64,000 nt of DNA from Gammaproteobacteria bacterium (GCA_034112285.1 JAWUVP010000016.1:14403-78402), one strand, 5' to 3'; counted from the stretch's first letter, positions 48,764-55,174 are shown. Notes: a model not told the origin generated them from the sequence alone. Program-made: numbers and translations.

Positions 48764-49283
48764 ATCTAGTTACTTCTCCCAAACTGGTTAGGCCTTACTT
48801 AAAATACAAAAACCCCCAACCATATCAACATGATAGAGTAGGGATTTAAAACTTATGTCGCCCAATTGGCGACTTTCTCTCATTTAGGGTCCCGGGCTTT
48901 TCGGCCCTACCTGCGGCCCTAATGAGGCTATTCAGGGACACGCAATATACACCACTTAACCTGTATTGCCAAGGGAAAATGTATAATTATTTTCTACGCC
49001 GGCATTGCCAAGACATTCCATGTCTAATTGAGTCGATGCTGCTCCTTAATATAAAATGTGTCTAACCGGAGCTTTAGGGAGGCAAAGCCACGGCCTAAAA
49101 CACCCATAGTTGTATTTCGTCTGTTTTTTACCTCAAACCACCTCTAAAACGCTCAATATTAATACAGTCCGTTAATATTTACTTAAGGTTGCTCCGATAC
49201 AATCAGCCAAGCCCAGGGAATACCCCTTCATTAACAGGTAAAAGCCATTTTGGCGGAAGAACCTAATTACAGTGAGTAGAACA

Positions 49284-52200
49284 ATGAAAATATTGCGCAA
49301 AGCCATTTTAACCAGCATCGGTATCTTACCTTTTTTCGCTCCCCTATCTGCCTTTGCTGCAGATGACGCAACCGATACGAAAGATTTATTGAGCAGTAGC
49401 GAGCTTGACTGGCGCAAGTCGCGCTTTAGTCTGGTTGCTGAATCTGGCTCACGCACCCTTGGTACGGTGGATGCCTTCGTGCCTTTCATGGGCAACGAAG
49501 ATTTCATGATTTATGCGGATTTAATGGCAAAACTGGGCTCAGGTGCCAGCAATGCTAGCGGCAACACCTTTGAAGGCAACCTCGGCTTAGGCTTTCGACG
49601 TGTGAACGATAAAGAAACAGCTATCTATGGTATGTACGCCTTTTACGATAGTCTACGTTCCGTTAACGACAACACCTTTCAACAGGTCACTGTCGGTGCT
49701 GAACGCTTAGGCTTAACCTGGGATTTTCGGGCCAATGTCTACTTGCCCTTGGGTGAAAAATCCCTGACCAAAGATGTCTATAAAGGTGGCAAAGTGGTGA
49801 TTGATGCACACAACTTAATTGAGTACATCAAATTAAACACTGAAACCATTACCACTGGTTACGATGTTGAAGTCGGCCGCACCCTGGGCACCAATAAATT
49901 GCGCGGCTACATCGGCGCTTATTCCTTTGGCAAAGATTTATCGGGCCCACGTATGCGCTTGGAATATCAACTGTCCTCTCACCTAACCTTAACGGGTAGT
50001 TTGCAACACGACAAAGATCGCGGCACCCAATATTTGTTAGGCGCGCGCATGAGTGTCGGCGGCAGTCAGGCAGAAAATTCTAACAGCATTTACAATCGCA
50101 TGACCGCCCCTGTGGTACGTGATGTTGATATTGTGACGAAAGTCACCGAAACAGATATGACTAAGGTCGAGCTAGATCGCTTCTACATGGTAGATGTCGA
50201 CAACCAAGCCAACGGCGATGGCACCTTAGAAAACCCGTTTAACTCTATCAATGACGCCATTAATGCTGCGCCGGAAAACGCCATTATTTTTGTCGTGGGA
50301 AAAAATGGCGAGCCGCAACAATTAGGCGGCGATACAAGCTTAAAAGAAGGCCAACTGTTGTGGGGTGGCTATGAACCACTCTATTGGGATTTCGACCAAG
50401 GCTTACCGCGCTTTGTTCCCAATGACGGCGACACCTTATTAATTCAATCAGGCAGTGGCGTGCGCCAGACCTTGAGTGGGGGAATTACCGCCAATGGTAA
50501 CAACATTGGCCTTTACCACTTTGATTTACAGGGCAACGGGCAGAGCGCCGATGGCGTTTTTATTAATGATCACAACGGGGTGGTTGTTAATGACGTCAAC
50601 ATTAGTGGTTTTGATACCGGCATTCAAATTTTAGGAAGCCATACGGATGTTAGCCTGAGCAATATTAAACTCGACCAAAATGGCACCGGTATACTGATTG
50701 AAGGGGGTCAAACGACCTATAGCAACCTCAGCATTAGCAATAGCGAGAACTATGGCATTCAAATGAGTGGTGGTTCTTCGCTGAGCGGCGACCATGTCGA
50801 AATCAGCAACAGTGGCCTAGATGGCATGCACATTGATAATGCAACCTTTAGTAGCAACAGCTTAACGATTAACAACAGCGAAGACAACGGCGTTTATCAA
50901 CAAGGTGGTAGCTTTAATGTGTTCGGAGCCGGTGCCGTTAGCAACAGTGGCAAAGATGGTATGCACTTTGAAAATGTAAGCTTTAGCGCCGGTAGTTTAA
51001 TGATTAGTGATAGCGATGGTTATGGCCTTTTCCAAACCGGGGGCAGCTTTGAGGTGCTGGGCAAAACCTCTGTCAGCGACAGCAAACAAGATGGCATCTA
51101 CTTTGAAAATCTTGATGCACGTATTGGTAGCATGAGTATCAGCAATAGTGGTGGCAAGGGTCTTTATCAAAACGGCGGTAGTTTAGTGGCCAGTGGTGAC
51201 TTGATAGCCAATAACAGCCAAGCTGATGGCATTTATTTACAAAATGTCACCGCGCTGGTGAAAAATATTAGCAGCACTGAAGCTGGCATGAATGGTTTAG
51301 TGCTTAACAACAGTGAGTTAAATGTTACGGGCTCGCTCGTCGCAGACAATAATGAAGCTTCAGGCATTGTTAATCAAGCGAGTAAATTGCGCATTGATGG
51401 GAAAAGTAGCAGCAGTGAGAATGGTGAATTCGGCTACTATGGCGAACACGGCAGCCTAACCGGTAGTGGTAGCTTGGAGACCTCTGCTAACAATTCAAGC
51501 GGATTTTTTGCCAGCGACAGCACAATTGAGCTGGGTGGTCTTACCAGCAACGCGAATGGCCAAGACGGCGTGATTTTACAAGACACTCAAGCAACATTTG
51601 GCTCTCTCACCGCACAAGACAACACAGCCGGAAAGGGTTTAACCATAAGTGGCAACGACAAACAAGTCAGCATTGGCATGGCCGACATTCAACGCAATAC
51701 CGTCGGCATAGTGCAGCATGATGCTGCGCTAACCATTGATAGCGGTAATGTTAGCAACAATACCCAAGAAGGGATTGATAGTTATGGCGCATCATTAACC
51801 ATTAACGATACTAACTTTGCAAACAATGGAACTGACGGCATTAAACTTAACAACGGCAGTCAGTTAACACTCGACGGCGGTAACTTTACTGATAATGGCC
51901 ACCACGGTTTAAACATGACCGACAACAATATCGCCAATATTAGCAATGTAAGCTTTACGCACAATGGTGGCATAACCGAAGATAAAGATGGCAATTCTAT
52001 TGTGCCCGATGCACAAAGCATCGATGATCTTTATAGCGCCATTTCTGTTTCGGGCACCCTAAATGCTAACGGCCTTATTGTGAACAACAATGCGGCTGGT
52101 ATTGAGTTAGTTAACGGTAGCTTAAACATCAACCAAGCTGTTGACAACAATACCAGTACCATTAACGACAATCATGGCTATGGTATTTGGGCGCATCAAA

Positions 52201-53249
52201 AGCAAGACGGCACAACACGAAACATCACTATTTCTAATACGCAGATCACCGGCAATACATTCGTCAATCCTGATGTGAAATTATTGGGTCATGGCATTTA
52301 TGCGCAAGATATCAATGAAATGCATTTAACCGATGTCAGTATGAATAACAATGAAGGCATTGGCTTATCGGTCGAAAGTGGCCGTGTAGCGCTAGATTCT
52401 GTTCAGCTTAACCAAAATAACACCGCGGGTTTATTGGTTGATGGCGGGGATGTCAGCCTTACAGACTCTGAAAGTATTGGCAATGGTAACGGGATAGAAT
52501 TTACGAACGGCAAATTAACCATTACCAACAGCTTCATTACAGACAATAAACATTTAGGTGTTTTATTAAAAAGTAACGCTGATGGTACTACGCGTGAATT
52601 AACCATGCGCGACTCTATTATCGAAGGCACAAAAAATAACAACTCTTCCATCAATTTAGGTCAAGGTGAAGGCCATGGCCTTGAGGTTGATGATAGCAAC
52701 TCAACAGTGACATTATTCAACACCCAAATTATTAATAATGAAGGCCATGGTGTTTATTTGAAAGCCGGTACGTTTACCATGGATGGCGATGATAAAAATT
52801 CATCACGCCTGGGTGAAAATGGTTTAGGTGGAATCTATGCTCTATTTGATAGCACGGCTCCAGAAAAATCTGTGCAACAAATCCACATTAACAACACAAC
52901 CATAGATTTAAATGTAAAGCGCACCGATGTGGAAGGTACCACCGCGGTGAAAATAAATTATCTTGATAAAGTCATGGACAAGACGGTCTTCATGGATAAT
53001 GTCGACATTATTCACAACAACGCTGCCGGCATTCAGTTCGTGTGGACTGATAACAATGCAAACATATATGAGGATAGCACGCCTACCATCACGCGATTAA
53101 CCATGAACAATAATGATGATTCAAATGGAAAATCGAAGCTTATAGACCCGATGATCGATCATGCAACCCTGAACCTTGGCCAAGAAGCAGAGGAATATAT
53201 CATTCGAGGCCAGGGCCGCGAGTTCTTTTGGGAAAAACGTGAACCCTAG
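49284..53249 (+). CDS. large secreted/outer-membrane protein: signal peptide + N-terminal amphipathic-strand beta-barrel-like domain (~aa 40-265) + >1000-aa parallel beta-helix repeat passenger (putative inverse-autotransporter-like adhesin)
   Basis: Signal peptide MKILRKAILTSIGILPFFAPLSAFA. N-terminal strands alternate hydrophobic and polar residues (LGLTWDFRANVYLPLG, LRGYIGAYSFG, RMRLEYQLSSHLTLTG). The rest is 22/44-aa periodic N/S/G/D-rich coils. No C-terminal barrel. Confidence 0.6.
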   Translation: MKILRKAILTSIGILPFFAPLSAFAADDATDTKDLLSSSELDWRKSRFSLVAESGSRTLGTVDAFVPFMGNEDFMIYADLMAKLGSGASNASGNTFEGNLGLGFRRVNDKETAIYGMYAFYDSLRSVNDNTFQQVTVGAERLGLTWDFRANVYLPLGEKSLTKDVYKGGKVVIDAHNLIEYIKLNTETITTGYDVEVGRTLGTNKLRGYIGAYSFGKDLSGPRMRLEYQLSSHLTLTGSLQHDKDRGTQYLLGARMSVGGSQAENSNSIYNRMTAPVVRDVDIVTKVTETDMTKVELDRFYMVDVDNQANGDGTLENPFNSINDAINAAPENAIIFVVGKNGEPQQLGGDTSLKEGQLLWGGYEPLYWDFDQGLPRFVPNDGDTLLIQSGSGVRQTLSGGITANGNNIGLYHFDLQGNGQSADGVFINDHNGVVVNDVNISGFDTGIQILGSHTDVSLSNIKLDQNGTGILIEGGQTTYSNLSISNSENYGIQMSGGSSLSGDHVEISNSGLDGMHIDNATFSSNSLTINNSEDNGVYQQGGSFNVFGAGAVSNSGKDGMHFENVSFSAGSLMISDSDGYGLFQTGGSFEVLGKTSVSDSKQDGIYFENLDARIGSMSISNSGGKGLYQNGGSLVASGDLIANNSQADGIYLQNVTALVKNISSTEAGMNGLVLNNSELNVTGSLVADNNEASGIVNQASKLRIDGKSSSSENGEFGYYGEHGSLTGSGSLETSANNSSGFFASDSTIELGGLTSNANGQDGVILQDTQATFGSLTAQDNTAGKGLTISGNDKQVSIGMADIQRNTVGIVQHDAALTIDSGNVSNNTQEGIDSYGASLTINDTNFANNGTDGIKLNNGSQLTLDGGNFTDNGHHGLNMTDNNIANISNVSFTHNGGITEDKDGNSIVPDAQSIDDLYSAISVSGTLNANGLIVNNNAAGIELVNGSLNINQAVDNNTSTINDNHGYGIWAHQKQDGTTRNITISNTQITGNTFVNPDVKLLGHGIYAQDINEMHLTDVSMNNNEGIGLSVESGRVALDSVQLNQNNTAGLLVDGGDVSLTDSESIGNGNGIEFTNGKLTITNSFITDNKHLGVLLKSNADGTTRELTMRDSIIEGTKNNNSSINLGQGEGHGLEVDDSNSTVTLFNTQIINNEGHGVYLKAGTFTMDGDDKNSSRLGENGLGGIYALFDSTAPEKSVQQIHINNTTIDLNVKRTDVEGTTAVKINYLDKVMDKTVFMDNVDIIHNNAAGIQFVWTDNNANIYEDSTPTITRLTMNNNDDSNGKSKLIDPMIDHATLNLGQEAEEYIIRGQGREFFWEKREP
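50740..51420 (+). repeat. tandem ~132-bp (44-45 aa) coding repeats inside the beta-helix protein
   Basis: Four or more consecutive units of the form S.N[SN]...G[IL]...GGS...G...[IV]S.S..DG[IM][HY][FI][ED]N. Confidence 0.6.
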
Positions 53250-55070: not shown

Positions 55071-55112
55071 TAAGCCCGGCGTCAGAGCGACGTAATCAGC
55101 AAACAAAAATGA

Positions 55113-55151
55113 AAACGCCCCACAACCTTAGAACAGGGTGTGGGGCGTTTT
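55113..55151. terminator. bidirectional rho-independent terminator between convergent paralog 2 and rpoC
   Basis: AAAACGCCCCACA-n13-TGTGGGGCGTTTT: 13-bp perfect stem with an A-run before and a T-run after. Confidence 0.7.
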
Positions 55152-55174
55152 GCTTCACGCTTTAAAACTACGTT

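What the first reader, a model, noticed from the sequence alone, without database searches (positions are those of the whole stretch)
48764..55174. ~6.4 kb plus-strand island inserted between rpsL and rpoC in an otherwise conserved minus-strand superoperon
rplL-rpoB-rpoC and rpsL-rpsG-fusA-...-rplQ are all on the minus strand. In many gammaproteobacteria rpoC is followed directly, or at short distance, by rpsL. Here three plus-strand genes sit between them: a 1321-aa beta-helix protein and two Cys-rich secreted paralogs. They have their own SD sequences, a 500-bp upstream region, and a strong bidirectional terminator against rpoC. These are all secreted, low-complexity, repeat-containing proteins with no recognisable enzymatic motifs. 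The content reads as an acquired surface/adhesion module, not core machinery.
Basis: partly seen in the sequence, partly recalled or inferred. Interest (0 to 1): 0.75.

Follow-up and report, generated by a model that had tools for sequence, protein, structure and literature searches.

The report
Surface-protein genes inserted between rpoC and rpsL
An uncultured Legionella-like bacterium carries, in the short spacer between its RNA-polymerase and ribosomal-protein operons, a gene for a large outer-membrane-anchored surface protein and two genes for small cysteine-rich secreted proteins of a very rare family; the placement is unusual but the main gene belongs to a known kind.

Summary
Three plus-strand genes (49284-53249, 53355-54110, 54324-55070) lie between minus-strand rpsL and rpoC and end at a strong bidirectional terminator (55112-55151).

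- **The large protein.** The 1321-aa protein is more than a beta-helix protein. Its first ~300 residues are an inverse-autotransporter (type Ve) beta-barrel: Pfam IAT_beta 8e-12, and the AF2 model best matches the invasin and intimin barrels. The rest is a ~1000-aa right-handed beta-helix passenger, an architecture already noted in silico in 2016.
- **The two small proteins.** They are 63%-identical paralogs under purifying selection. Each is a tandem pair of a ~105-aa six-cysteine beta-sandwich domain with no Pfam family. Only two other clusters match among 1.84 billion representatives.
- **Is it an insertion?** Yes. Two relatives with 85% RpoC identity, and 67 of 71 gammaproteobacterial loci, have rpoC and rpsL 120-530 bp apart.
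- **Is it foreign?** There is no sign of that. GC, GC3, codon use and tetranucleotide signature are host-like, and there are no mobility genes or att-like repeats. The nearest homolog is a paralog from the same sample, so duplication or relocation within the lineage is most likely.

Nothing is shown about the function of the small proteins, and a link to the autotransporter is unsupported. Interest is modest.

The parts
48764..48985 (-). Left boundary, not part of the insertion. This is the ancestral rpsL promoter (TTGGCA-17-TATATT, 48972-48944) plus a ~180-nt structured 5' leader with a terminator-like last hairpin.
   Evidence: Aligns at 77% mean column identity with the rpsL upstream regions of relatives L092 and L097. 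The consensus fold has 43 pairs, 8 of them with compensatory changes. Promoter match. No Rfam hit.
48986..49283 (+). ~300-nt upstream region specific to the inserted genes. The promoter has not been identified.
   Evidence: No homology to the spacers of relatives. Only weak consensus promoter matches at 48966-48993 and 49028-57, no more than chance would give.
49284..53249 (+). Inverse autotransporter (type Ve) gene, 1321 aa. Signal peptide: aa 1-25 (49284-49358). IAT beta-barrel plus linker: aa ~45-295 (49416-50168). Right-handed beta-helix passenger: aa ~296-1321 (50169-53246), including 45-aa (135-nt) tandem repeats at ~50795-51250.
   Evidence: - Pfam IAT_beta: E 8e-12, 45.7 bits against a cutoff of 22.3, on the N-terminal 400 aa; 23 of 24 family members hit.
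- The family profile hits invasin 4E1T at 7.8e-7 and intimin 4E1S at 0.016.
- AF2 model pLDDT 82.7. Foldseek top hits are 4E1T, 4E1S and 5G26, E ~1e-11, TM 0.70-0.74.
- Beta_helix PF13229 matches in all three thirds of the passenger.
- Repeats.
53238..53279 (+). Stable hairpin that overlaps and follows the autotransporter stop codon. It may be a leaky terminator or a transcript-stabilising element.
   Evidence: Folding energy -19.1 kcal/mol, z -5.95, with no shuffle folding as well. It is followed only by an imperfect U-rich stretch (sequence).
53355..54110 (+). Cys-rich secreted protein A (251 aa): a signal peptide followed by two copies of a ~105-aa six-cysteine domain.
   Evidence: No Pfam or NCBIfam family. 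AGGA Shine-Dalgarno motif upstream. dN/dS against B is 0.33.
54324..55070 (+). Cys-rich secreted protein B (248 aa), a tandem paralog of A with the same two-domain layout.
   Evidence: 63% identity to A. All 12 cysteines are conserved. The 5' end, covering the ribosome-binding site and signal peptide, is 87% identical at the DNA level, with dS 0.12 against 0.83-0.88 in the domains.
55112..55151 (.). Bidirectional intrinsic terminator shared by rpoC (-) and gene B (+). This is the right boundary.
   Evidence: 17-nt arms, 94% complementary, with an A-run before and a T-run after. Folding energy -27 and -31.4 kcal/mol, z -5.0 and -6.2.

Best explanation
The segment ~48990-55110 is a lineage-specific insertion into the spacer between the rpoC terminator and the rpsL promoter. 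The host is an uncultured Legionellales-like gammaproteobacterium.

**The main gene.** It encodes a type Ve (inverse) autotransporter. The expected steps below are inferred from the family, not shown here.
1. Sec exports the protein.
2. The N-terminal 12-stranded beta-barrel is inserted into the outer membrane by BAM/TAM.
3. The C-terminal ~1000-residue right-handed beta-helix is threaded out through the barrel as a hairpin.
4. The helix folds outside and stays anchored as a long rod on the cell surface. It most probably acts as an adhesin or a glycan-binding protein.

**The two downstream genes.** They encode tandem paralogs of a secreted protein built from two copies of a rare six-cysteine beta-sandwich domain. 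These proteins are exported by Sec. They are presumably oxidised in the periplasm; their cysteine pairings were not examined. Their final location and role are unknown.

**Origin.** The insertion did not come recently from a foreign genome. It is compositionally native, and its autotransporter is the sister of a paralog from the same community, probably the same genome. Both belong to a multi-copy, lineage-restricted family. The most likely origin is therefore duplication or relocation within the lineage into a transcriptionally neutral gap. That gap is repeatedly used for insertions in other gammaproteobacteria.
For: **Identity of the large protein**
- Pfam IAT_beta is above its gathering score.
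- The family profile hits invasin and intimin.
- A confident AF2 barrel model has best structural matches 4E1T and 4E1S, five orders of magnitude ahead of other barrels.
- Beta_helix matches run along the whole passenger.
- Heinz et al. 2016 (PMC4943183) describe invasin_beta plus 'pectin lyase' fold proteins.

**It is an insertion**
- L092 and L097 (RpoC 85% identical) have rpoC->rpsL gaps of ~370-390 bp and share the rpsL promoter and leader with the window.
- 67 of 71 gammaproteobacterial loci have gaps of 121-532 bp.

**It looks native**
- Composition, codon use and tetranucleotide signature are within the host range.
- No mobility genes, tRNA or flanking repeats; no Rfam match.

**Paralogy**
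- About 30 close family members share a 59-74% identical barrel domain, sit at various loci, and in several cases appear to occur two to a contig (co-location inferred from equal contig lengths).
- P0002 comes from the same samples. Its contig has GC 0.449 and a tetranucleotide correlation of 0.944 with the window. It is the reciprocal nearest neighbour of the window protein in 993 of 1000 bootstraps, and is closer to it than to its own syntenic counterpart P0003.

**The genes are real and not new arrivals**
- dN/dS for A against B is 0.33 with dS ~0.7-0.9. dS between the large gene and P0002 is saturated.

**The junction is a recurrent insertion point**
- Other cargo sits after rpoC in L003, L029, L033 and L065, and in the genomes carrying P0058 and P0069.
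Against: - Surface exposure, adhesion and BAM/TAM dependence are inferred from the family and not shown.
- That P0002's contig belongs to the same genome rests only on shared samples and composition.
- No relative closer than 87% RpoC identity was available, so the age of the insertion is loosely bounded. An old, fully ameliorated transfer from a related lineage cannot be excluded.
- The passenger has no match to any solved structure by sequence and was not modelled.
Confidence: 0.7

Rival explanations
1. The three genes form a ZirTSU-like 'two-partner' inverse-autotransporter system. In this reading the two Cys-rich proteins are substrates or binding partners, exported or displayed with the help of the autotransporter.
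For: - The gene order is a barrel-bearing autotransporter followed by two co-directional paralogous genes for signal-peptide proteins that lack a barrel. A strong terminator is seen only after the last gene.
- This mirrors zirT-zirS-zirU and similar operons described in PMC4943183.
- The Cys-rich domain is predicted to be a beta-sandwich, the same broad fold class as ZirS and ZirU.
Against: - The small proteins show no sequence similarity to the autotransporter, unlike ZirS/ZirU relative to ZirT.
- Homologous autotransporter loci (L083/84, L088, L089) have no such neighbours. Their downstream genes lack signal peptides.
- The only other Cys-domain genes (P0177, P0178) are not next to autotransporters.
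- A stable hairpin separates gene 1 from gene 2.
- The autotransporter has a full-size passenger, which would occupy the barrel pore.
Confidence: 0.15
2. The segment is a recently acquired genomic island brought in by horizontal transfer from an unrelated organism.
For: - It is absent from relatives.
- It is on the opposite strand to its neighbours.
- Its content is of the surface-protein type, which is often mobile.
- The two small genes have slightly low GC3 (0.34, 0.39) and codon-likelihood values at the low end of the host range.
Against: - GC, GC3, codon use and tetranucleotide signature are host-like.
- There are no integrase, transposase, tRNA or att-like repeats.
- The closest homologs are restricted to the same uncultured clade and the same samples.
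- The A/B duplication (dS ~0.7-0.9) happened long ago.
Confidence: 0.1
3. The layout is ancestral for this clade, and the three genes were lost in the relatives examined.
For: Two of the four closest relatives also have non-ribosomal genes after rpoC: a Vut_1 fragment in L091, and opposite-strand MFS and MarR genes in the P0069 contig.
Against: - Those cargos are different genes.
- Two relatives with 85% RpoC identity, and 67 of 71 wider gammaproteobacteria, have the short spacer.
- Loss would have had to restore a spacer of typical length, carrying terminator and promoter, more than once.
Confidence: 0.04

Closest known systems
Inverse autotransporters with a 'pectin lyase'-fold (right-handed beta-helix) C-terminal domain, noted bioinformatically by Heinz et al. 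2016 (PMC4943183)
   Same: The domain order is the same: signal peptide, invasin_beta/IAT_beta barrel, linker, then a beta-helix passenger.
   Different: Those proteins were only listed in silico and none has been characterised. The present protein belongs to a tight subfamily found so far only in uncultured Legionellales-like metagenome contigs. It sits between rpoC and rpsL.
Intimin (EaeA) and invasin (InvA), the archetypal type Ve adhesins (PDB 4E1S, 4E1T)
   Same: The N-terminal 12-stranded barrel fold and the linker motif match, with the passenger C-terminal to the barrel.
   Different: - The passenger is a ~1000-aa beta-helix rather than Ig-like (Big) domains capped by a lectin domain (PMC6555100).
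- There is no periplasmic LysM domain: only ~20 residues lie between the signal peptide and the barrel.
- Barrel sequence identity to the solved structures is 14-17%.
ZirT/ZirS/ZirU and SinH/SinI-type operons (inverse autotransporters with co-encoded secreted partners)
   Same: An autotransporter gene is followed by co-directional genes for small signal-peptide proteins. Here there are two paralogs predicted to be beta-sandwiches.
   Different: - The partners are unrelated in sequence to the passenger.
- They are built from a new six-cysteine domain.
- The association is not conserved at homologous loci.
Classical (type Va) autotransporters with beta-helix passengers, e.g. pertactin, AIDA-I, EspP
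   Same: A long right-handed beta-helix is displayed on the surface through a 12-stranded barrel. Secretion is probably driven by folding.
   Different: The domain order and the direction of secretion are opposite. The barrel matches type Va barrels much less well (Foldseek E ~1e-5 against 1e-11).

Membership tests
Inverse autotransporter (type Ve secretion, Pfam PF11924 IAT_beta) | N-terminal Sec signal peptide | tested here: met
   The sequence MKILRKAILTSIGILPFFAPLSAFA|ADD has a basic n-region, a hydrophobic core and an AxA site. This is by inspection; no predictor was run.
Inverse autotransporter (type Ve secretion, Pfam PF11924 IAT_beta) | Sequence match to the IAT_beta domain above the curated threshold | tested here: met
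   E 8e-12, 45.7 bits against a cutoff of 22.3, when residues 1-400 are scanned alone. 23 of 24 family members match. The full-length scan missed it. The family profile hits invasin 4E1T at 7.8e-7.
Inverse autotransporter (type Ve secretion, Pfam PF11924 IAT_beta) | 12-stranded outer-membrane barrel fold like intimin/invasin, followed by a linker | tested here: met
   AF2 model pLDDT 82.7. Foldseek best hits are 4E1T, 4E1S and 5G26, E 4e-12 to 1e-11, TM(target) 0.70-0.74; the next-best barrels are at ~1e-6. The structure is predicted, not solved.
Inverse autotransporter (type Ve secretion, Pfam PF11924 IAT_beta) | Passenger C-terminal to the barrel | tested here: met
   Beta_helix domains run from ~residue 420 to 1250, after the barrel at 45-295.
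Inverse autotransporter (type Ve secretion, Pfam PF11924 IAT_beta) | Passenger of Ig-like (Big) domains with a lectin-like cap (typical, not obligatory) | tested here: not met
   There are no Big, Ig or lectin Pfam hits, only PF13229 and PF05048. Beta-helix passengers are a recognised minority (PMC4943183).
Inverse autotransporter (type Ve secretion, Pfam PF11924 IAT_beta) | Outer-membrane location, surface exposure of the C-terminal part, and BAM/TAM dependence | not testable with these tools
   This needs expression and fractionation or protease-shaving experiments.
ZirTSU-like two-partner inverse-autotransporter system | Autotransporter gene followed by co-directional genes for barrel-less proteins with signal peptides | tested here: met
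   Genes at 53355-54110 and 54324-55070.
ZirTSU-like two-partner inverse-autotransporter system | Downstream proteins resemble the domains of the autotransporter's C-terminal part | tested here: not met
   BLASTP best E 0.72.
ZirTSU-like two-partner inverse-autotransporter system | The gene association is conserved across homologs | tested here: not met
   Homolog loci L083/84, L088 and L089 lack Cys-domain genes. The Cys-domain genes P0177 and P0178 are not near autotransporters.
ZirTSU-like two-partner inverse-autotransporter system | Secretion of the partners depends on the autotransporter | not testable with these tools
   This needs genetics.
Horizontally acquired genomic island | Present here and absent at the same site in relatives | tested here: met
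   L092 and L097 have gaps of ~370-390 bp. 67 of 71 gammaproteobacterial loci have gaps of 121-532 bp.
Horizontally acquired genomic island | Composition deviates from the host | tested here: not met
   GC 0.447 against 0.451 and GC3 0.443 against 0.454. Codon log-likelihoods are -1.03, -1.24 and -1.20, against a host range of -0.99 to -1.23; the -1.24 of gene A is marginally below it. Tetranucleotide correlation is 0.850 against 0.862 +/- 0.035.
Horizontally acquired genomic island | Mobility hallmarks: integrase or transposase, tRNA target, flanking direct repeats | tested here: not met
   The ORF list shows no such gene. There are no flanking repeats beyond chance-level 20-26-mers. There are no Rfam matches, which covers tRNAs.

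The most novel reading that the evidence does not exclude
The autotransporter and the two Cys-rich beta-sandwich proteins would be a new kind of type Ve two-partner system. A beta-helix-bearing inverse autotransporter would display or export a previously unknown family of cysteine-rich proteins. The system would sit back-to-back with the rpsL promoter, so its expression would be coupled to growth-rate-controlled transcription in a probably host-associated Legionellales-like bacterium.
Probability: 0.1. Interest if true: 0.6.

Novelty: new member of a known kind. Interest (0 to 1): 0.3.

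Why it matters
**What the case shows**
- The rpoC|rpsL spacer is a terminator followed by a promoter. It tolerates, and repeatedly receives, unrelated cargo even in the most conserved gene neighbourhood of bacteria. This is useful to know when synteny is used as an anchor or as a 'safe harbour'.
- Looking different from ribosomal genes is not evidence of foreign origin.

**What it adds**
- A clear, well-modelled example of the little-studied inverse autotransporters with beta-helix passengers. 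It belongs to a family that appears to be expanded in an uncultured Legionellales-like clade, where surface proteins may mediate contact with hosts.
- An extremely rare six-cysteine secreted domain with no known relatives, which may be worth a structural or functional look.

None of this overturns current understanding.

Tried and rejected
**Searches that found nothing or less than hoped**
- Exact look-up with the longest ORF of the first small gene found nothing. The ATG-started form did.
- The full-length Pfam scan of the large protein missed IAT_beta. Only the isolated N-terminus scored.
- NCBIfam gave nothing for any of the three proteins.
Its best match was only 70% identical (a Rickettsiella endosymbiont), so it served for the gap survey and not for finding close relatives.
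- Cluster look-up gave no organism names.
- Both metagenome scans returned no confirmed locus: the Cys-domain alignment and the barrel domain.
- The AFDB Foldseek library was unavailable.
- A literature search for the sample and run accessions found nothing. Searches for inverse autotransporters in Legionella and for rpoC-rpsL islands found nothing relevant.
- phmmer of the passenger against PDB sequences gave no hit.
- A Biopython bootstrap timed out and was replaced by a nearest-neighbour bootstrap.

**Leads examined and dismissed**
- The exhaustive profile search gave one spurious hit, P0179, a eukaryotic low-complexity coiled-coil protein.
- The 939-aa ORF in the rpoC-rpsL gap of the Rickettsiella endosymbiont is unrelated to the island.
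- Assembly artefact was considered and rejected: the junctions recur in separate assemblies.
- A non-coding RNA in the upstream region was considered and rejected: no Rfam hit, and the structured part is the rpsL leader.

Full report
**1. The observation**

The interval 48764-55174 is exactly the space between the start codon of rpsL and the stop codon of rpoC.
- rpsL is at 48389-48763 on the minus strand, with Pfam S12 at 1e-41.
- rpoC is at 55175-59410 on the minus strand.
- S7, EF-G, S10, SecY, RpoA and L17 on one side, and RpoB on the other, are all on the minus strand (L001 annotation).

Three plus-strand ORFs fill the interval.
- A 1321-aa protein from the ATG at 49284 to 53249.
- A 251-aa protein at 53355-54110.
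- A 248-aa protein at 54324-55070.

Each begins with a classical Sec signal peptide, read from the sequence. A 17-nt-arm hairpin at 55112-55151 lies between an A-run and a T-run. It folds at -27 kcal/mol on the plus strand and -31.4 kcal/mol on the minus strand, with z-scores of -5.0 and -6.2. This confirms the 'strong bidirectional terminator'.

The window is part of a 133.6-kb JGI metagenome contig (3300041954, Ga0455761_049538). The same arrangement is present in a Logan assembly of SRR25824425. The gene B/rpoC junction is present in SRR25824424. It is therefore not an assembly accident.

**2. The organism**

RpoC is 73-75% identical to the RpoC of Legionella species and of Candidatus Berkiella. 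It is 79-87% identical to about a dozen unnamed metagenome proteins. The host is therefore an uncultured Legionellales-like gammaproteobacterium with no close cultured relative.

**3. The large protein**

Pfam on the full protein reports only Beta_helix (PF13229, 1.6e-27) and a weak NosD match. By eye the N-terminus resembled an inverse-autotransporter barrel. This was tested in four ways.
1. Many of its ~50 database homologs carry PF11924 IAT_beta.
2. Residues 1-400 scanned alone score IAT_beta at E 8e-12, 45.7 bits against a cutoff of 22.3. 23 of 24 aligned family members match.
3. A profile of the family's N-terminal domain finds the invasin barrel 4E1T (7.8e-7) and the intimin barrel 4E1S (0.016) among PDB sequences.
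4. An AlphaFold2 model of residues 1-400 has mean pLDDT 82.7, and only the signal peptide region is disordered. It shows a barrel from ~47 to 259, a short helix at 269-272 and the first rungs of a beta-helix. Foldseek ranks 4E1T, 4E1S and 5G26 first, at E 4e-12 to 1e-11 and TM 0.70-0.74. Other barrels follow at 1e-6 or worse.

The remaining ~1000 residues match only Beta_helix in each third. They contain 45-residue (135-nt) tandem repeats around 50795-51250.

The protein is thus a type Ve (inverse) autotransporter with a right-handed beta-helix passenger. It has no periplasmic LysM domain. Reviews state that Ve passengers are typically Ig-like and lectin-like (PMC6555100). However, Heinz et al. 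2016 already reported a group of invasin_beta proteins with a 'pectin lyase' fold C-terminal domain (PMC4943183). The architecture is therefore known in silico, although it has not been characterised experimentally.

**4. The two small proteins**

They are 63% identical. Each has 12 cysteines at conserved positions. Each is itself an internal duplication of a ~105-residue domain with six invariant cysteines and the motifs GFWF-Q and YNNSQLP-GLHCLP.
- dN/dS between the two genes is 0.33, with dN 0.23 and dS 0.69. Both are therefore maintained by selection and the duplication is old.
- The 5' 75 nt are far less diverged, with dS 0.12. This suggests gene conversion or a constraint on the signal-peptide region.
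- Neither Pfam nor NCBIfam recognises them.

The word-indexed search of 5.8 billion proteins found only the two proteins themselves. An exhaustive HMMER profile search of 1.84 billion cluster representatives found only two further proteins. These are P0177 and P0178, single-domain 143-aa secreted proteins at E 2e-18 and 2e-15. A third hit was a spurious low-complexity protein.
- P0178 comes from the same samples as the window, at an unrelated locus.
- P0177 is on a 1.5-kb contig next to a dus gene.

**5. Is it an insertion?**

Yes.
- Among 80 gammaproteobacterial loci retrieved with the RpoC C-terminus, 71 contain both genes. In 67 of these the gap is 121-532 bp.
- In two relatives with 85% RpoC identity (L092, L097), rpsL follows rpoC after ~370-390 bp.
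- The rpsL-proximal ~220 nt of the window (48764-~48985) aligns with their spacers. The aligned part covers the promoter (TTGGCA-17-TATATT) and a structured leader with compensatory changes.

The inserted DNA is therefore ~48990-55110. It lies between the rpsL promoter and the rpoC terminator, a place where it interrupts no transcript.

This junction has received other cargo elsewhere.
- A 939-aa unknown ORF in a Rickettsiella endosymbiont (L003).
- TPR, PAS-histidine kinase and fructosamine-kinase genes in a Halieaceae MAG (L029).
- Gaps of 2.3 kb and 1.1 kb in L033 and L065.
- A Vut_1 fragment after rpoC in the relative with 87% RpoC identity. There fusA-tuf lies upstream of secE.
- Opposite-strand MFS and MarR genes in the relative with 79% RpoC identity.

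**6. Is it foreign?**

The evidence says no.
- The three genes together have GC 0.447 and GC3 0.443. The 26 non-ribosomal genes of the window have 0.451 and 0.454.
- The ribosomal genes have GC3 0.32, which is why the island looks different from its immediate neighbours.
- The per-codon likelihood of the large gene under host synonymous usage is -1.03, which is typical. The two small genes, at -1.24 and -1.20, sit at the low end of the host range of -0.99 to -1.23.
- The tetranucleotide signature correlates with the rest of the window at r = 0.850. Random 6.4-kb host segments give 0.862 +/- 0.035.
- There is no integrase, transposase, tRNA or convincing flanking repeat and no Rfam hit.

The autotransporter belongs to a compact family.
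- About 30 members share a barrel domain 59-74% identical to the window's, with variable passengers. Apart from one MAG-derived NCBI-only entry, they were seen only on metagenome contigs.
- They sit at different loci. In several cases two members appear to share a contig, judged from equal contig lengths.
- The nearest member, P0002, is 48% identical overall and 74% in the barrel. It is encoded in the same two JGI samples and the same SRA runs, next to gapA, tkt and GDSL-lipase genes.
- That contig has GC 0.449 and a tetranucleotide correlation of 0.944 with the window.
- P0002 and the window protein are sister in a neighbour-joining tree and reciprocal nearest neighbours in 993 of 1000 column bootstraps. 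P0002 is more distant (66%) from P0003, which occupies the syntenic gapA-tkt locus in another sample.

This pattern is what duplication within the lineage followed by relocation would give. Synonymous divergence between the two genes is saturated, so the event is old.

**7. Are the three genes a functional unit?**

The order is an autotransporter followed by two paralogous barrel-less secreted proteins. This recalls zirT-zirS-zirU and related operons, in which the downstream proteins are reported to be secreted through the autotransporter (PMC4943183). Several tests speak against transferring that model.
- There is no sequence similarity between the small proteins and the passenger.
- The association is not conserved at three homologous autotransporter loci, where the downstream genes lack signal peptides.
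- There is no autotransporter near the other two Cys-domain genes.
- A stable hairpin (-19.1 kcal/mol, z -5.95) lies directly after the autotransporter stop codon.

Co-transcription remains possible, because the only strong terminator is at the end. It was not tested.

**8. Mechanism**

*Shown*
- The domain architecture.
- The signal peptides.
- The barrel fold, as a prediction.
- The beta-helix repeats.
- The position between a terminator and a promoter.

*Inferred from established knowledge of type V secretion*
- Sec export.
- BAM/TAM-assisted barrel insertion.
- Hairpin-mediated export of the C-terminal passenger, driven by folding of the beta-helix outside the cell.
- Retention as a rigid surface rod. 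At roughly 22 residues and 4.8 Å per rung, about 1000 residues would give a rod of the order of 20 nm.
- A most likely role in adhesion or glycan binding.

For the small proteins, Sec export and presumed periplasmic disulfide formation are inferred; the cysteine pairings were not examined. Their onward fate is unknown.

**9. Verdict**

- It is a surface-protein module.
- It was inserted into an otherwise contiguous rpoC-rpsL junction.
- It is compositionally native and most probably arose by paralog duplication or relocation within the lineage, not by recent acquisition.

The main gene is a new member of a known but unstudied architectural class. The cysteine-rich domain is an uncharacterised, extremely rare family. 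Interest is modest, at 0.3.

Noticed in passing
window 48764-48945 (minus strand): There is a conserved ~180-nt rpsL 5' leader with three hairpins. The last one (CCCCC...GGGGG followed by a T-run) resembles an intrinsic terminator or attenuator. Across three genomes, 8 of 43 predicted pairs show compensatory changes. There is no Rfam match at E <= 1. It could be an uncharacterised regulatory leader of the str operon in this clade.
   Followed up: partly
window 45269-47882: No tuf gene lies between fusA (45780-47882) and the S10 ORF (45269-45769); only 10 nt separate them. The relative L092 has fusA-tuf-rpsJ. The S10 ORF is 166 aa, with ~65 residues ahead of the Pfam S10 domain, and the same length is called in L092.
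   Followed up: no
L003 11017-14467; L029 11020-17893; L033; L065; L091 14322-14585; P0069 contig: The spacer after rpoC holds unrelated cargo in several other gammaproteobacteria. Examples are a 939-aa unknown ORF, TPR + PAS-kinase + fructosamine kinase genes, a Vut_1 fragment, and MFS + MarR genes. This suggests a recurrent insertion or rearrangement point.
   Followed up: partly
L091 1-2145 and L092 1-2080, 15450-18755: In relatives, fusA-tuf lies directly upstream of secE. L092 carries fusA-tuf both there and after rpsG. This is either a real duplication or relocation of the str operon end, or a scaffold artefact.
   Followed up: no
window 53333-53528 vs 54302-54497: The ribosome-binding site and signal-peptide-coding start of the two Cys-rich paralogs are 87% identical in DNA, with dS 0.12. 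The rest of the genes is 74-77% identical, with dS 0.83-0.88. This suggests gene conversion or a nucleotide-level constraint at the 5' ends.
   Followed up: partly
table (P0012/P0022, P0020/P0023, P0021/P0024, P0026/P0027): Pairs of autotransporter family members report the same longest-contig length. This suggests that two paralogs share one contig, that is, local arrays of this surface-protein family in related organisms.
   Followed up: no
L083/L084 14269-19183: Downstream of the closest paralog (P0002) lie two large proteins (574 and 604 aa) with no Pfam match and no signal peptide. A convergent gene with a T6SS-SciN (TssJ-like) domain follows, and it also flanks the syntenic homolog in L088.
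   Followed up: no
window 48966-48972: The -35 hexamer of the rpsL promoter (TTGGCA, minus strand) overlaps a plus-strand TTGCCA that has a TATTTT 16 nt downstream. This could be a back-to-back divergent promoter for the autotransporter gene, but the match is weak (9/12) and no better than chance.
   Followed up: no
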